Of a stretch of 64,000 nt of DNA, positions 15,020 through 64,000 are shown piece after piece. Source of the DNA: a bacterium (GTDB lineage: Bacteria > SM23-31); contig JANQEH010000194.1 in NCBI GenBank assembly GCA_028278455.1, forward strand, positions 1,059 to 65,058. Reading direction: 5' to 3'. Every line of letters begins with the position of its first letter. The stretch's first letter is position 1. The notes below the pieces were generated by a model, which searched no databases, was not told where the DNA came from, and saw only the letters and a program-made list of their open reading frames with translations. Position numbers and translations under genes: made by a program.

Positions 15020-15171
15020 GTCCTTCTCCGGGAAAGTATTAAGTGTATTTTATTAGATATAACAATATTATAAAAATAATACATATTTATCAAACAGAAA
15101 AATACCGATTTCGTAATATGAGAATGATTCAAATATTGATTCTATTCAGAAAAATGGGTAAATTATAATAC

Positions 15172-15224
15172 TATTGGGGATGGAGTCTCCCATTGACCGC
15201 CCATAACGGCTGATGACTCCTGCG
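15172..15224 (+). promoter_or_regulatory. fluoride riboswitch (crcB RNA motif)
   Basis: GGGGAUGGAGUCUCCCAUUGACCGCCCAUAACGGCUGAUGACUCC fits the crcB motif. P1 is GGGG/UCCC. The conserved GAUGG, ACCGCC and GGCUGAUGA blocks are present. The pseudoknot pairs GGAGUC with GACUCC. It lies about 85 nt upstream of crcB. A TATAAT hexamer sits at 15164-15169. Confidence 0.85.
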
Positions 15225-15307
15225 GTTCGGGAACCCGCTGACGAGAATGCGCTCTGATGTAAATAATGCGATTCCAGCAATTCTCTATTGATTTGATCCT
15301 GTGAAAT

Positions 15308-52049: not shown

Positions 52050-52133
52050 GCGAGAGTGGCGGAATTGGCAGACGCGCTAGACTTAGGATCTAGTAGGGTA
52101 ACACCTGTGGGGGTTCGAGTCCCCCCTCTCGCA
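52050..52133 (+). tRNA. tRNA-Leu (anticodon TAG)
   Basis: Cloverleaf folded by hand. Acceptor GCGAGAG/CTCTCGC. 3-bp D stem GCG/CGC. Anticodon stem CTAGA/TCTAG with loop CTTAGGA. 15-nt variable arm (type II). T arm GGGGG-TTCGAGT-CCCCC. Discriminator A. CCA is not encoded. Confidence 0.9.
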
Positions 52134-52148
52134 CAATAAAAAACAAAA

Positions 52149-60854: not shown

Positions 60855-61231
60855 ATCTTTTCTTGATCAGTTTTTTGTTCCAAATTCATCAATTCCACAC
60901 AGTTGTTTCATTGTCTGATAAAACGGCAAGAAGTATACCAGATTTTCGATATTTCATTGGCGGATTTGACATCTTGTTACAGAATAATGAGTTACCTTTA
61001 TAATATTTCTGAATCCTTCAGAAAAGCCGGTAAATAATTATTGATAAGAAATTAAAGGAATGTGGATTTTTATACGATTTTTTGATTGAAAATCAACAAT
61101 TGTAAAACTACCCAAAACTTACCTTGAATACGTATTATATAATACCCAATTAAAAGAATATACTATACCTGCCGATTAATAAAAAAATAGATTATTTTAA
61201 AGACCACTTTTGGAACTGTGCCGCAATAGCT

Positions 61232-61597
61232 ATGCGTGATTCTATTATTAATATATTCTTACTGTTATTGTTTAGCATATTCAACGGTTGCAATTCATCA
61301 TCTGACAAGTATATATCCATACCTGAATTATAAGAGTACTGCAAATTGCCGGGGCAGGCAGTTAAAATGCTACCCTGTGAAAATGAAATCGCTAAGGTTA
61401 TAGGATATATTGACTACGAAAGTGTTTTTAACCGGAATGAATATCCGCAGCTTCCCTATGAAAAATTCGTTATATCAGACTCAAAGACAACATTCAGACT
61501 CGAGGTTTGGGTAACAGGGGATAATAATTCAGGTATATTCAATAAAATAACAGAAAACAGAAAAGAAGAACCTGTTTACCTGACAGTAAAAATTTAG
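61232..61597 (+). pseudogene. small lipoprotein gene interrupted by an in-frame TAA
   Basis: The ATG at 61232 encodes MRDSIINIFLLLLFSIFNGCNSSSDKYISIPEL, then TAA at 61331-61333. The same frame continues EYCKLPGQAVKMLPCENE... to the stop at 61597 (this is the track ORF 61346..61597). A signal/lipobox and a mature part in one frame, split by a single stop. Confidence 0.5.
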
Positions 61598-61712
61598 GGA
61601 ATCGATCTTTATAAAGATTCTTCAGGGGAAAGACGCATAAAATAAACATTAATGATGAAGACAATATTTCGTTTAAAAAGACTAATGAAAAATTGGGTAC
61701 AGGACAGTTAAA

Positions 61713-62160
61713 ATGAGGATGAGATCAGAATTTATATTTTGAGTAATAATTATTCAGCTTCTTTTTTTCGCTTCAGTTTCGTTTTCGCAGGAAATAACGC
61801 TGAACGGGGCTATAGAAGCAGCTCGGTCATGGAACAGCAGGCTGACACTTACAAATCAAACGCTCTTTACAGGGCTGTAATATTCACTGTATCTGAAGAT
61901 CCTGTACGTGGACAATATGTGATCACGGGTGAAAATAACAGGATACTCGCTTTGTACTGAATTTCCAACCAAGTGGATTTATTGCAGTTGCTGCTGATCG
62001 TGGTATGAAACCTGTGATAGCATATTCGAGAAGCTCGGATTTTGATCCCGAACCATCTACTCGGAATTTACTCCTTAAAATGATACAGGCTGATCACAGG
62101 CTAGTTCATGACAACCAGGAAAATGATTATGATCCGATAGAGAATATAAATATCCTATAA
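61713..62160 (+). pseudogene. remnant of a C10 (streptopain/PrtT-type) cysteine peptidase gene: propeptide region only, one in-frame stop and two frameshifts
   Basis: Frame 1: MRMRSEFIF-TGA(61740)-VIIIQLLFFASVSFSQEITLNGAIEAARSWN..., a signal peptide and the propeptide start. Frame 2 continues ...IFTVSEDPVRGQYVITGENNRILALY. Frame 3 continues NFQPSGFIAVAADRGMKPVIAYSRSSDFD..., the 'GFviVsaDdr..PvlaYS' Spi-inhibitor/C10 propeptide motif. It ends at 62160 with no catalytic domain. Confidence 0.55.
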
Positions 62161-62392
62161 ATAACTCCCATCAAGGTGGGAGGAAATATTGCATAACAGT
62201 CACATTCTCTCTCTTTTATTAAATATCGTAAATGCTATTTCTCCTCTAGATTAGAAAAGATTATTGATTATTCCTTCCAATTTTAAACACAACACTTAAC
62301 AATGCACATAAATCATCAAATAATACTTGACTACTAAATATCTTATTATTTTTTTGGTGCAAAAAACACATCCACAATAAGGTGATTATCTT

Positions 62393-63004
62393 ATGAAACC
62401 TGAGAACAAGAAAAAAGATATCCCCCAAATTAATGAAAAAGAGGCTTTTTTATCTTTAAAAGGAAGTGCTTCATCCACAAGAACCACCTTTAAAATATCA
62501 AAAGAAGCTAATAATTCTCTGAAATGGTTATCAGAAAATTTCAATATCGGACCAAAAGAAATCTTTGAATATATTTCAAAAGTACCAGACGTTATTTATC
62601 AGGCCGCAGCGTTAGCAAGATATGAAGGGCAGAAATCAAAATTATATTCTATCAGAAAGTCATTTGTTATTAATATTAATGCATATAATTCAATACTAAG
62701 CTCATCAAAAGAGTCTAATATACATCGTGATGCGATATTAGACGAAGTGATTAAGATAATCAAGAAAGCTGTTGAAATACAAGCTCAAAAAGAACGTGAT
62801 AATCTACAAATAGCTATAGACATGGCAAAAAAATGTGTTATTGATAAAGAGCTTAAACATTTAAAAAATTTATTTGGAGATGATCATCCTATTGTACTTC
62901 GATTTAATATCATTAGTACAATAGCTGGAAATCTATGCTCAGCAATAGAAAATTATTTGGAAAAAGGTATTCCTATTGATCCAGACGATATCAGTCAGTG
63001 TTAA
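62393..63004 (+). CDS. hypothetical protein, 203 aa, partner of NYN nuclease
   Basis: ATG start with AAGGTGA SD. Lys/Glu-rich and mostly helical-looking. The N-terminal TTFKISKEANNSLKWLSENF could be a strand-helix (RHH-like) element. No family recognised. GC is about 30%. Confidence 0.55.
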   Translation: MKPENKKKDIPQINEKEAFLSLKGSASSTRTTFKISKEANNSLKWLSENFNIGPKEIFEYISKVPDVIYQAAALARYEGQKSKLYSIRKSFVININAYNSILSSSKESNIHRDAILDEVIKIIKKAVEIQAQKERDNLQIAIDMAKKCVIDKELKHLKNLFGDDHPIVLRFNIISTIAGNLCSAIENYLEKGIPIDPDDISQC

Positions 63005-63016
63005 TAAATGTATTAA

Positions 63017-63589
63017 ATGATTTTAATAACAATTGTGGATAAGCTATTGAGAAATACAATAAAACCAAAAACCATGATATTTATCGATGGTGCAAATCTT
63101 CATTATGGTACAAAAGAATTTAAAATAAAACTTAATGAAGATTGGAGTCTTGATTTGCTTGCCTTAATTAAAAAGGTAAATGATAAAAGATTGTTAGGAT
63201 CGGTTTATTACTTTATATCAATGCCTAGAAAACCTTCTGCCAAAAAAATTAAATACAGAGATTTCCTGAAAAAAAATGGAATAAGAGTAATTGAAATCCC
63301 CCTTCACTATCCGCCAAAAAGAAAAGCCCGGGAAAAAGGCTTAGATGTTGCATTGGCAACTAGGCTCATTGTAAAGGCTCTTGAGGGGAAATTTGATACT
63401 GGTATAATAATCAGCGGTGATAAAGACTATATATACGCTGTTAAAGAATGCCGTAAAAGGGGATTAAAAATCGAGGTGACATCATTTCAAAGCAGATTAT
63501 CCCTAGATCTAAAAAAAGTGTGTGATAAAATCTGGGTAATTGATGATTTTTATGATGAAGTTAATCAAAAAAAACAGCCCCAATCCTAA
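63017..63589 (+). CDS. NYN-domain (LabA/DUF88-like, PIN-fold) ribonuclease
   Basis: MIFIDGANLHYG, GLDVALATRLI and IIISGDKDYIYAV carry the four conserved NYN acidic residues. Lies 12 nt downstream of the 203-aa ORF. The start could be Met20 (63074). Confidence 0.75.
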   Translation: MILITIVDKLLRNTIKPKTMIFIDGANLHYGTKEFKIKLNEDWSLDLLALIKKVNDKRLLGSVYYFISMPRKPSAKKIKYRDFLKKNGIRVIEIPLHYPPKRKAREKGLDVALATRLIVKALEGKFDTGIIISGDKDYIYAVKECRKRGLKIEVTSFQSRLSLDLKKVCDKIWVIDDFYDEVNQKKQPQS

Positions 63590-63786
63590 ATAAGGGAGGG
63601 CTGCATATCTTAAGCTCCAGTATCTCTTTCGAGGTTGAGCCTGTATAAATTATAATATCGGCATACTTTAATGTCAAATCAAGTAAAATTTATTATTTCT
63701 TTACTATTATTATCTATTACTTGTTTAAACTGAATTTTGTTCCCGGCGTTAGGTTTCTGATTTAGAGTGTTCAACAAATAAGATAC

Positions 63787-63822
63787 GGCTTCCATTCTAC
63801 GTTGGAAGCCTTCTTCATTTGT
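63787..63822. terminator. bidirectional terminator hairpin between NYN cassette and sod
   Basis: GGCTTCCA-ttctacgt-TGGAAGCC forms an 8-bp stem, extended by CAACAAAT/ATTTGTTG. Both flanks are T-rich. Confidence 0.5.
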
Positions 63823-63834
63823 TGAGTAAAATCG

Positions 63835-64000
63835 TTATTTTGCAACTGCTGCGAATCTCTTCGCTACATCATCCCAGTTGAAAATATTGAAAATATTTTC
63901 GACATACGCTGGACGCTTATTCTGATATTTCAGATAATACGAATGTTCCCAAACGTCGACGATTAGTAATGGTACAGCACTGAACTGTGTTACATCATGG
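63835..64000 (-). CDS. Fe/Mn superoxide dismutase, 3' fragment (gene continues past right edge)
   Basis: Hand translation of the minus strand: ...[45 protein letters not shown]. This contains the D-x-W-E-H-x-Y-Y SOD signature. Confidence 0.85.

What the first reader, a model, noticed from the sequence alone, without database searches (positions are those of the whole stretch)
62393..63589. AT-rich two-gene cassette of an unknown 203-aa protein plus an NYN (PIN-like) nuclease: candidate uncharacterised toxin-antitoxin or defence module
Seen in the sequence:
- Two same-strand ORFs are separated by 12 nt.
- GC is about 28-33% in lines I counted by hand, against about 45% in core genes.
- The pair sits between two decayed genes on the left and a strong bidirectional terminator on the right.
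- The second protein keeps all four NYN acidic residues (FIDGAN, GLDVAL, SGDKDY), so it is predicted to be an active nuclease.
- The first protein matches no family I recognise.

Inference:
- Its N-terminus (TTFKISKEANNSLKWLSENF) could form a ribbon-helix-helix-type strand plus helix, as in VapB/CopG antitoxins.
- The layout resembles VapBC, with NYN replacing PIN and a partner two to three times larger than usual antitoxins.
- A small, low-GC, self-contained nuclease cassette in a decaying region is the typical setting of mobile TA and anti-phage modules.
Basis: partly seen in the sequence, partly recalled or inferred. Interest (0 to 1): 0.7.

Follow-up and report, generated by a model that had tools for sequence, protein, structure and literature searches.

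The report
Swappable-nuclease module with double-RHH partner
A small low-GC two-gene operon pairs a predicted RNA-cutting NYN enzyme with a member of an undescribed family of DNA-binding proteins that elsewhere sits in front of other small toxin-like nucleases in anti-phage gene islands, so it is most likely a toxin-antitoxin or defence-type module, though no activity has been shown.

Summary
Two co-directional ORFs, 62393-63004 (203 aa, "A") and 63017-63589 (190 aa), lie 12 nt apart in the lowest-GC stretch of the window (30.4% against 40.1%).

- **ORF2** is a full-length LabA-type NYN domain with the acidic active-site residues intact.
- **ORF1** is not an orphan. It belongs to an unmodelled family of at least 238 clusters at 50% identity, with no Pfam, NCBIfam or PADLOC hit.
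- **Fold of A:** a confident AlphaFold model shows two ribbon-helix-helix motifs in one chain (TraY/VirC2-like), a helical C-domain and a conserved acidic tail (PIDPDDxSQ).
- **Partners of A:** in 17 of 22 other lineages, A is followed by an 85-aa DUF4258-like (BECR RNase toxin-like) gene. Many of these loci lie beside BREX, McrBC, TIR/STAND or restriction genes. Other partners include PADLOC candidate PDC-S32 (AbiJ-like).
- **The NYN pairing** is a lineage-specific swap, seen only here and in one relative, where it is under strong purifying selection (dN/dS 0.06).
- **Operator candidate:** the hexamer ATTACT is enriched upstream of family genes (22 observed, 3.8 expected).

The toxin-antitoxin or defence reading is supported by association only. 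Toxicity, neutralisation and defence are untested.

A conserved candidate antisense sRNA overlaps the NYN 3' end.

The parts
62296..62392 (+). Upstream control region of the operon. It holds a promoter-like site TTAACA-17-AATAAT (62296-62324), ATACTTGACTACT (about 62323-62337) resembling the TACTTGACA box of homologous loci, and an AAGGTGA Shine-Dalgarno-like sequence 8 nt before the ATG.
   Evidence: Consensus scan only, 10 of 12 matches. There is no exact ATTACT/AGTAAT family motif here, only two 1-mismatch copies. Weak.
62393..63004 (+). Gene A, 203 aa, a member of an unmodelled family. Layout: variable N-terminus; RHH motif 1 (strand 28-36, STRTTFKIS); linker helix; RHH motif 2 (strand 86-94, RKSFVINI...HRD); helical C-domain (112-191); conserved acidic tail GIPIDPDDISQC.
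   Evidence: 238 family representatives at E<=1e-3 and 86 at E<=1e-10. Alignment A2. AF2 pLDDT 88.7, pTM 0.76. Foldseek hits to single-chain RHH proteins. No Pfam, NCBIfam or PADLOC hit. The C-terminus is conserved in L001.
63017..63589 (+). NYN (LabA/COG1432-type PIN-like) nuclease gene, 190 aa. Predicted metal-binding residues are D24, D110, D135 and D137. The true start may be M20 (63074), because residues 1-19 are not conserved in homologs.
   Evidence: Pfam PF01936 E 1.2e-19. PADLOC HEC-09 1.7e-16 and NYN 2e-16. Profile against PDB gives 2qip at 8.5e-12. AF2 pLDDT 86.6; Foldseek gives 2qip TMt 0.84 and the MARF1 NYN domain. dN/dS 0.06 against L001.
63567..63642 (-). Candidate sRNA of about 76 nt. 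It has a 5' hairpin with a GAAA loop, then an intrinsic terminator (CAGCCCUCCC...GGGGCUG plus U8). It is antisense to the last 23 nt of the NYN ORF and to its 3' UTR. Whether it belongs to the module is unproven.
   Evidence: MFE -26.5 kcal/mol, z -3.0. The 56-nt core is 100% identical in L001 while the flanking coding DNA is about 79% identical. No Rfam family.
63649..63677 (-). Promoter of the candidate sRNA: TTGACA-17-TATAAT.
   Evidence: It is the only perfect sigma-70 consensus in the 64-kb window, with 0 expected in 100 shuffles. In L001 the same position reads TTAGCA-17-TATAAA, which is weaker.
63787..63810 (.). Hairpin that passes the terminator scan on both strands, between the cassette and the convergent sod gene. 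It is the likely end of the A-NYN transcript and of sod.

Best explanation
The cassette is a two-gene conflict module of the toxin-antitoxin or abortive-infection kind.

Payload: a LabA-type NYN metal-dependent endoribonuclease. Fold and active-site residues are shown; the activity is inferred.

Partner: gene A, which belongs to an undescribed family of about 200-aa proteins. These proteins have a single-chain double ribbon-helix-helix DNA-binding domain, a helical C-domain and a conserved acidic tail.

Proposed roles of A:
- It binds operator half-sites at its own promoter and represses the operon. This is inferred from the fold and from the ATTACT/AGTAAT enrichment upstream of family genes.
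- It also keeps the nuclease inactive, by direct binding or through its tail, until a stress or infection signal removes it. This is inferred only.

Evolution: the family behaves as a constant 'head' gene with exchangeable nuclease partners. The usual partner is an 85-aa DUF4258/Ntox49-like BECR RNase. In the window's lineage that partner was replaced by NYN, and the pair has since been inherited vertically at one chromosomal site.
For: Operon and NYN gene:
- The two genes are co-directional with a 12-nt gap and share an anomalously low GC and GC3.
- NYN domain, fold and acidic residues are confirmed.
- NYN is under strong purifying selection against its 83%-identical homolog in L001, and A's C-terminus is also retained there (dN/dS 0.06).

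Fold of A:
- The tandem RHH fold is predicted with high confidence.
- It matches TraY-type relaxosome chains (probability 0.98-0.99), VirC2, single-chain Arc and viral RHH proteins.

Partners of A across lineages:
- In 17 of 22 other lineages A is followed, within 6-35 nt in all but one (L015, where a 227-aa ORF lies between), by an 85-aa protein with invariant H6, R10 and R14.
- 12 of 13 such proteins match Pfam DUF4258 over its full length, below the curated cut-off, with best E 7.3e-5.
- DUF4258 is listed as a BECR-fold type II toxin family with antitoxin-toxin gene order (PMC11980606). It is equated with Ntox49, whose conserved residues are H and K/R.
- Another partner is PADLOC PDC-S32 (AbiJ_NTD4), E 1e-55.
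- The three closest A homologs all carry the DUF4258-like partner, so the NYN pairing is a replacement.

Neighbourhoods of family loci:
- BrxA/BrxB, McrBC, SNF2 plus DUF1156, iSirtuin/STAND plus TIR, NERD, HIRAN and a DDE transposase.

Operator candidate:
- ATTACT/AGTAAT is the most enriched hexamer in the 160 nt upstream of A genes: 22 observed against 3.8 expected, z 9.9, in 13 of 19 lineages. Controls gave 4 and 1.
Against: - No experiment supports toxicity, neutralisation or defence for any member of either family here.
- A is conserved along its whole length whatever its partner is. That fits a generic regulator better than a partner-specific neutraliser.
- In the common three-gene form, the variable third gene could be the real antitoxin or immunity protein. 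The window has no such gene.
- The window's own upstream region lacks an exact ATTACT copy.
- The window locus lies among core genes (pho regulon, sod) and its synteny is conserved in the one relative available.
- HEC-09, the PADLOC NYN candidate, gave no protection against the phages tested.
- No member was found on phage, plasmid or viral contigs.
- The DUF4258 matches are below Pfam's gathering threshold.
Confidence: 0.5

Rival explanations
1. A is only a transcriptional regulator, like the omega repressor of omega-epsilon-zeta systems or like BrxR/CapW-type regulators. It switches a stand-alone nuclease effector on and off and does not bind or neutralise it. NYN activity would be limited by expression level, by substrate specificity or by the antisense sRNA.
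For: - A has a full-length conserved architecture and tail regardless of partner type.
- The upstream hexamer is conserved.
- PDC-S32 and HEC-09 are single-gene candidates in PADLOC, so such payloads can stand alone.
- A conserved antisense sRNA overlaps the NYN 3' end.
Against: - Tight coupling (gaps of 6-35 nt) and antitoxin-then-toxin order with a small BECR-like protein are typical of neutralising antitoxins.
- A is about 100 aa longer than a DNA-binding domain needs to be.
- There is no evidence for any sensing ligand.
Confidence: 0.25
2. The pair is an ordinary chromosomal regulator plus a LabA-like RNA-processing or regulatory NYN protein, inherited vertically, with no toxin or defence role.
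For: - The same locus and the same neighbour (sod) occur in the relative L001/L028, with strong purifying selection.
- The flanks are core genes.
- The best structural match is the uncharacterised LabA-like VPA0982, and the function of the NYN.COG1432 group is unknown.
Against: - GC is 10 points below the genome and GC3 is 0.20-0.26.
- A's family is patchily spread over Latescibacterota, Desulfobacterota, Marinimicrobia, Balneolaceae and others. It is attached to toxin-like partners in defence islands.
- The NYN pairing is unique to this lineage, which indicates module shuffling rather than an ancient housekeeping operon.
Confidence: 0.15
3. The cassette is a decayed remnant. An original A / DUF4258-like / third-gene system lost its toxin, and the NYN gene is an unrelated neighbour that happens to abut A.
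For: - The surrounding 1.5 kb is gene-poor and holds a peptidase-propeptide fragment.
- NYN relatives elsewhere lack A.
Against: - The gap is 12 nt, the strand is the same and the composition is shared.
- Both genes are intact and retained together in a diverged relative with dN/dS 0.06.
Confidence: 0.07

Closest known systems
VapBC-type type II toxin-antitoxin modules (PIN-domain RNase toxin with an upstream RHH/AbrB/Phd antitoxin-repressor)
   Same: A small bicistronic operon. The upstream gene has an RHH-type DNA-binding domain. The downstream gene is a PIN-superfamily metal-dependent nuclease with four acidic residues.
   Different: - The nuclease belongs to the NYN (LabA/COG1432) branch, not VapC.
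- The partner is 203 aa with two RHH motifs in one chain and a folded helical C-domain, unlike a 70-90-aa dimeric antitoxin with a disordered tail.
- The partner family is shared with non-PIN toxins.
DUF4258 (PF14076)/Ntox49 BECR-fold toxin modules (Gerdes 2025, PMC11980606; Zhang et al. 2012, PMC3482391)
   Same: A's family is the usual upstream neighbour of an 85-aa DUF4258-like protein, in antitoxin-toxin order. The window's module looks like the same chassis with a different nuclease.
   Different: - The window has no DUF4258-like gene.
- The 85-aa partners score below Pfam's threshold.
- DUF4258 toxins themselves are uncharacterised. Their reported fusions are with MqsA-type antitoxins, not with this family.
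HEC-09 (PADLOC candidate; NYN protein embedded in Hma systems; bioRxiv 10.1101/2024.01.29.577857)
   Same: It is homologous over the NYN domain (E 1.7e-16), with conserved aspartates as in MARF1.
   Different: - HEC-09 is a single-gene candidate embedded in Hma systems. No Hma, BREX or RM genes flank the window cassette.
- HEC-09 showed no defence against the phages tested.
LabA / VPA0982 (PDB 2qip), NYN.COG1432 group
   Same: It is the best sequence-profile and fold match (E 8.5e-12; TMt 0.84) and is a single-domain protein of similar size.
   Different: LabA-like proteins are generally regarded as chromosomal regulatory or RNA-metabolism proteins of unknown activity. None is described with this partner.
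TraY / VirC2 / single-chain Arc: single-chain double-RHH DNA-binding proteins
   Same: The predicted fold of A residues about 28-125: two beta-alpha-alpha motifs in one chain forming a pseudo-dimer.
   Different: - This is structural resemblance only, with Foldseek E about 0.1 and 9-16% identity.
- There is no relaxase or conjugation context.
- A carries an extra C-terminal domain of about 80 aa and a conserved tail.
Panacea/PanA (DUF4065) 'hyperpromiscuous' antitoxin domain (from my own knowledge: Kurata et al., PNAS 2022)
   Same: One conserved upstream protein family is paired with several unrelated toxin or effector families.
   Different: The fold is unrelated. Promiscuity here is inferred from about 23 loci only, and no neutralisation has been shown.

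Membership tests
NYN domain (Pfam PF01936; LabA/COG1432 group) | Score above Pfam's gathering threshold over the whole domain | tested here: met
   71.6 bits against a cut-off of 24.2, profile positions 1-142 of 145.
NYN domain (Pfam PF01936; LabA/COG1432 group) | Four conserved acidic residues predicted to bind the metal ion | tested here: met
   D24, D110, D135 and D137 are present. D24, D135 and D137 are invariant and D110 is kept in 6 of 7 homologs. The definition is taken from PMC5499597.
NYN domain (Pfam PF01936; LabA/COG1432 group) | PIN-like alpha/beta fold without a helical insert after strand 2 | tested here: met
   The AF2 model (pLDDT 86.6) matches 2qip with TMt 0.84 and rmsd 2.6 A, and also the MARF1 NYN domain 5yaa.
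NYN domain (Pfam PF01936; LabA/COG1432 group) | Ribonuclease activity | not testable with these tools
   Requires an enzyme assay.
Type II toxin-antitoxin system | Two small adjacent co-directional genes forming an operon | tested here: met
   12-nt gap, same strand, shared composition. Co-transcription itself has not been shown.
Type II toxin-antitoxin system | The antitoxin carries a DNA-binding domain and autoregulates the operon | tested here: inconclusive
   A double RHH is predicted. ATTACT is enriched upstream of family genes. The window has no exact copy upstream, and there are no binding data.
Type II toxin-antitoxin system | The toxin arrests growth and the antitoxin protein neutralises it by binding | not testable with these tools
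   Needs expression and rescue assays and interaction assays. No multimer prediction tool was available.
Type II toxin-antitoxin system | The gene pair recurs as neighbours in unrelated genomes | tested here: not met
   A-NYN occurs only in the window and in L001/L028, which are one lineage. Other NYN relatives have other neighbours. A recurs instead with a DUF4258-like partner in 17 of 22 lineages.
VapBC | The toxin is a VapC-type PIN domain | tested here: not met
   Pfam assigns NYN and gives no PIN/VapC family hit.
VapBC | The antitoxin is of a VapB family (AbrB/SpoVT, RHH/CopG, Phd/YefM), about 70-90 aa | tested here: not met
   A is 203 aa with no Pfam antitoxin family. Only 3 of 61 family members touch RHH_1 or RHH_3, at E about 2e-3.
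HEC-09 (PADLOC) | Match to the PADLOC HEC-09 profile | tested here: met
   E 1.7e-16, profile positions 3-176 of 203. The generic PADLOC NYN model scores equally well (2e-16).
HEC-09 (PADLOC) | Embedded in an Hma or other multi-gene defence system | tested here: not met
   The neighbours are a pstS/phoR/phoB-like cluster, a CheY-like regulator and sod.
Defence-island resident | Known defence genes within a few kb | tested here: not met
   Not met for the window. Met for many homologous A loci: L005, L006/7, L009, L012 and L029.
DUF4258-type TA module | A DUF4258/Ntox49 toxin gene downstream of the antitoxin | tested here: not met
   No such ORF exists in the window cassette. It is present in most homologous loci.

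The most novel reading that the evidence does not exclude
Gene A could define a new, widespread, 'promiscuous' control protein for small nuclease effectors. In this reading it is a single-chain double-RHH repressor with a conserved operator half-site (ATTACT) and a conserved acidic C-terminal tail that acts as a degron or sensor. It would license interchangeable RNase payloads (DUF4258/Ntox49-like, NYN, AbiJ-like) in defence islands across many phyla. In the window's lineage the system would have a third layer: a strongly promoted antisense sRNA convergent with the NYN 3' end, making it a hybrid of protein-controlled and RNA-controlled toxin regulation.
Probability: 0.2. Interest if true: 0.75.

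Novelty: new variant of a known kind. Interest (0 to 1): 0.55.

Why it matters
- **An undescribed protein family.** If confirmed, a family absent from Pfam, NCBIfam and PADLOC (at least 238 clusters at 50% identity) would become a recognisable marker of small nuclease conflict modules. These lie in uncultured Desulfobacterota, Latescibacterota, Marinimicrobia, Balneolaceae and other lineages.
- **First tests for two nuclease families.** LabA-type NYN proteins and DUF4258 proteins are both experimentally uncharacterised in bacteria. This would give a first testable toxin or effector context for them.
- **A natural partner swap.** It would be a case of one controller with several unrelated nucleases. 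That helps in asking how antitoxins or regulators can be generic.
- **A cautionary point.** The window's instance shows that such modules can settle among core genes and be inherited vertically. Filters based only on defence islands would miss it.

Tried and rejected
- **Orphan status of ORF1.** The word-indexed search found only the query itself. The exhaustive HMMER search overturned this.
- **Locus search.** The search for related loci with the 61-sequence alignment failed for lack of a conserved stretch. An 11-sequence subset worked.
- **A on mobile elements.** No relatives on viral contigs, phage records or plasmid records.
- **A-like partner beside other NYN genes.**
  - L027's upstream 201-aa protein is an unrelated membrane protein.
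  - L002 has a P63C gene and an IS fragment upstream.
- **Sequence search of PDB with the A profile.** Only noise-level hits, among them McdB and the RHH regulator Reg576.
- **Operator repeats in the window's own upstream region.** Only short AT-rich matches at chance level.
- **Mobile-element boundaries around the low-GC tract.** No convincing direct or inverted repeats, and no nearby tRNA.
- **Fusions of A with a C-terminal domain of about 155 aa (P0032-like).** No Pfam, PADLOC or PDB match.
- **sRNA candidate.**
  - No Rfam family at gathering or E-value thresholds.
  - No viral match.
  - No significant trans pairing with the A or NYN translation-initiation regions, z from -1.7 to +0.7.
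Full report
**1. Observation**

- The window has two co-directional ORFs at 62393-63004 (203 aa, here "A") and 63017-63589 (190 aa), separated by 12 nt.
- The cassette has 30.4% GC. The window mean is 40.1%, with an SD of 3.2% for windows of the same size.
- It lies in the lowest 0.7% of such windows. GC3 is 0.20 and 0.26, against 0.36-0.45 in neighbouring genes.
- The low-GC tract runs from about 60855 to 63836.
- To the left, 1.5 kb has no ORF of 130 aa or more. One frame (61963-62157) holds a fragment of the Spi/Inhibitor_I69 propeptide of C10 peptidases (E 1e-5).
- Further left are a CheY-like regulator, a PhoB/PhoR-like pair and a PstS-like gene. To the right is a convergent Fe/Mn superoxide dismutase gene.
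- A hairpin at 63787-63810 passes the terminator scan on both strands.

**2. The NYN protein**

- ORF2 matches Pfam NYN (PF01936) at E 1.2e-19, end to end.
- It matches PADLOC's HEC-09 and generic NYN models at about 2e-16.
- A profile of seven homologs finds the LabA-like VPA0982 structure 2qip at E 8.5e-12.
- The AF2 model (pLDDT 86.6) superposes on 2qip with TMt 0.84 and on the MARF1 NYN domain.
- D24 and N27 (FIDGAN) and D135 and D137 (SGDKDY) are invariant among the seven homologs; D110 (GLDVAL) is kept in six of seven.
- The first 19 residues are not conserved in homologs, so translation may start at M20 (63074).
- NYN.COG1432 proteins have no established biochemical function (PMC5499597).

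**3. Protein A is not an orphan**

- Pfam, NCBIfam and PADLOC give nothing for A. The word-indexed search found only the query itself.
- An exhaustive HMMER scan of 1.84 billion representatives found 238 clusters at E<=1e-3 and 86 at E<=1e-10. Nearly all are 185-220 aa and align along their whole length.
- The alignment shows four conserved features:
  - SVRTTFxLS, at about residues 28-36;
  - RKTxVISKxxLxxLNxxSKxxxISRD, at 88-113;
  - DDPIxxRF...NLxxAIE;
  - a C-terminal GxPIDPDDxSQ.
- AF2 with this alignment gives pLDDT 88.7 and pTM 0.76.
- The predicted elements are strand 28-36, helices 37-50 and 54-62, a linker helix, strand 86-94, helices 95-108 and 112-148, and two more helices. The last 12 residues have low confidence.
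- That is two ribbon-helix-helix motifs in one chain, followed by a helical domain.
- Foldseek against PDB returns chains E, F and G of the F-plasmid relaxosome (probability 0.98-0.99, TMt about 0.5). From their size I take these to be TraY, which is known to have two RHH repeats (PMC5102898).
- Other PDB hits are DndE, VirC2 and permuted single-chain Arc.
- Against BFVD, Foldseek returns 100-120-aa RHH proteins of Sulfolobales viruses.
- E-values are modest (0.1 against PDB, 2e-3 to 1e-2 against BFVD), but the hits agree with each other.

**4. Genomic company of the A family**

I read the downstream genes of family members on about 22 other lineages.

- **Usual partner.**
  - In 17 lineages A is followed by an ORF of about 85 aa beginning MNxxxHAxxRxQQRGIP. 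The gap is 6-35 nt, except in L015, where a 227-aa ORF lies between.
  - H6, R10 and R14 are invariant in this ORF.
  - Twelve of 13 such proteins hit Pfam DUF4258 over its full length, below the curated cut-off, with best E 7.3e-5.
- **What DUF4258 is.**
  - It is catalogued as an uncharacterised BECR-fold type II toxin family with antitoxin-then-toxin order (PMC11980606).
  - It is equated with the polymorphic-toxin domain Ntox49, whose conserved residues are H and K/R.
- **Third gene.** A variable third gene usually follows: Mrr_N-containing, ankyrin-repeat, a 180-aa family, and others.
- **Exceptions.**
  - A plus a PADLOC PDC-S32 / AbiJ_NTD4 protein plus a ResIII helicase.
  - A plus Mrr_N plus the 180-aa family.
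  - A fused to an unknown 155-aa domain.
- **Neighbourhoods.** These include BrxA/BrxB, McrBC, SNF2 plus DUF1156, iSirtuin/STAND plus TIR, NERD, HIRAN and a transposase.
- **Hosts.** They span Latescibacterota, Desulfobacterales, Thermodesulfobacteriota, Neomarinimicrobiota and Balneolaceae.
- **Mobile elements.** None was found on phage, plasmid or viral records.

**5. The A-NYN pairing is lineage-specific but maintained**

- Only one other lineage carries the pair: L001/L028, which are 99.9% identical to each other.
- There, A's C-terminus (NYLDKGIPIDPDDYSQS), an 83%-identical NYN and the same sod gene occur in the same order.
- NYN dN/dS between the two lineages is 0.06, with dS about 1.6. 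The gene is functional and has been kept through substantial divergence.
- The three closest A homologs all carry the DUF4258-like partner.
- More distant NYN relatives have unrelated neighbours.
- The simplest history is that a chassis of A plus a small RNase had its nuclease replaced by NYN. The module then settled between core genes.

**6. A candidate operator**

- In the 160 nt upstream of A genes from 19 lineages, ATTACT/AGTAAT is the most enriched hexamer. It occurs 22 times against 3.8 expected (z 9.9), in 13 lineages.
- Control regions gave 4 copies (inside A) and 1 copy (far upstream).
- TTGACA-type -35 boxes come next in the ranking.
- The copies flank or overlap the -35 box, often as direct or inverted pairs. 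This fits autoregulation by a DNA-binding protein of conserved specificity.
- The window itself has only two one-mismatch copies (AATACT, ACTACT) around TTGACT near 62321-62337. The point is therefore inconclusive for this locus.

**7. Mechanism**

*Shown:*
- the operon-like layout;
- the NYN fold and active-site residues;
- the double-RHH prediction;
- the family's association with toxin-like and defence-candidate partners;
- purifying selection on NYN.

*Inferred:*
- NYN is an RNase whose uncontrolled activity is harmful.
- A represses the operon through its RHH domain.
- A also restrains the nuclease.
- The conserved, probably disordered acidic tail mediates turnover or partner contact.

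*Main weaknesses:*
- A is conserved along its whole length whatever its partner is, which fits a generic regulator as well as a neutraliser.
- In the three-gene relatives, the variable third gene might be the real immunity factor.
- No experiment exists for either family.
- The NYN candidate HEC-09 showed no defence in its one published test.

I put 0.5 on the TA or defence-type module with A as repressor and antitoxin. I put 0.25 on A as regulator only, 0.15 on a housekeeping pair and 0.07 on a decayed remnant.

**8. Comparison with known systems**

- The module works like a VapBC-type system, with a PIN-superfamily nuclease plus an RHH partner. It fails membership, because it has a NYN rather than a VapC domain and no VapB family match.
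- It shares its chassis with DUF4258-type modules but lacks DUF4258.
- It is homologous to HEC-09 but is not embedded in a defence system.
- The controller family itself appears undescribed.
- I rate it a new variant of a known kind.

**9. Side observation**

- Immediately right of the NYN stop, on the minus strand, lies the only perfect TTGACA-17-TATAAT in the 64-kb window (0 expected).
- About 76 nt downstream is a hairpin followed by U8 that overlaps the last 23 nt of the NYN ORF.
- The RNA folds at -26.5 kcal/mol, z -3.0.
- Its 56-nt core is 100% identical in L001, where the flanking coding DNA is about 79% identical. L001's promoter is weaker (TTAGCA-17-TATAAA).
- No Rfam family matches.
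- It is a plausible sRNA, convergent with and antisense to the 3' end of the NYN message. Its role, if any, in the module is unknown.

Noticed in passing
window 63567-63677 (minus strand): Candidate sRNA of about 76 nt. It is driven by the only perfect sigma-70 consensus promoter in the window and ends in a hairpin plus U8 that overlaps the NYN stop. Its core is 100% conserved in L001, and no Rfam family matches.
   Followed up: partly
window 61963-62157 (+ frame), within the gene-poor tract 60855-62392: Fragment of the Inhibitor_I69 (Spi) propeptide of a C10 cysteine peptidase, covering profile positions 55-88 of 98 only. It is a pseudogene remnant. The neighbouring small ORFs at 61346-61597 and 61739-61960 match nothing.
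   Followed up: partly
160 nt upstream of A-family genes in L005, L013, L015, L017, L023, L024, L029, L033 and others: The hexamer ATTACT/AGTAAT (often GATTAC) recurs as direct or inverted copies around a TACTTGACA -35 box: 22 observed against 3.8 expected. It is a candidate operator shared across phyla.
   Followed up: yes
P0029, P0032, P0103, P0139, P0152 (L033:437-1462): Some family members carry a conserved extra C-terminal domain of about 155 aa (WDFG...VWI...GxIGDxxGWxRQFKxPW) with no Pfam, PADLOC or PDB sequence match. In L033 the gene lies next to a PIN_10 plus DUF433 pair.
   Followed up: partly
L004:6965-7513 and L006:7006-7542 (also L007): A protein of about 180 aa with no Pfam hit, carrying a shared G(A/G)(S/Y)GDWHG motif, recurs as the last gene of A-headed operons, with or without the DUF4258-like gene. 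Mrr_N-containing and ankyrin-repeat proteins fill the same slot elsewhere.
   Followed up: no
window 15167-15229 (+) and 52050-52134 (+): A fluoride riboswitch (crcB motif, 42.9 bits) and a tRNA-Leu are the only Rfam gathering-level hits in the window.
   Followed up: no
L002:3142-4985: The 39%-identical NYN homolog sits downstream of a P63C-domain protein, with an IS-type transposase fragment between them. This is a different and possibly mobile context for the same NYN subfamily.
   Followed up: no
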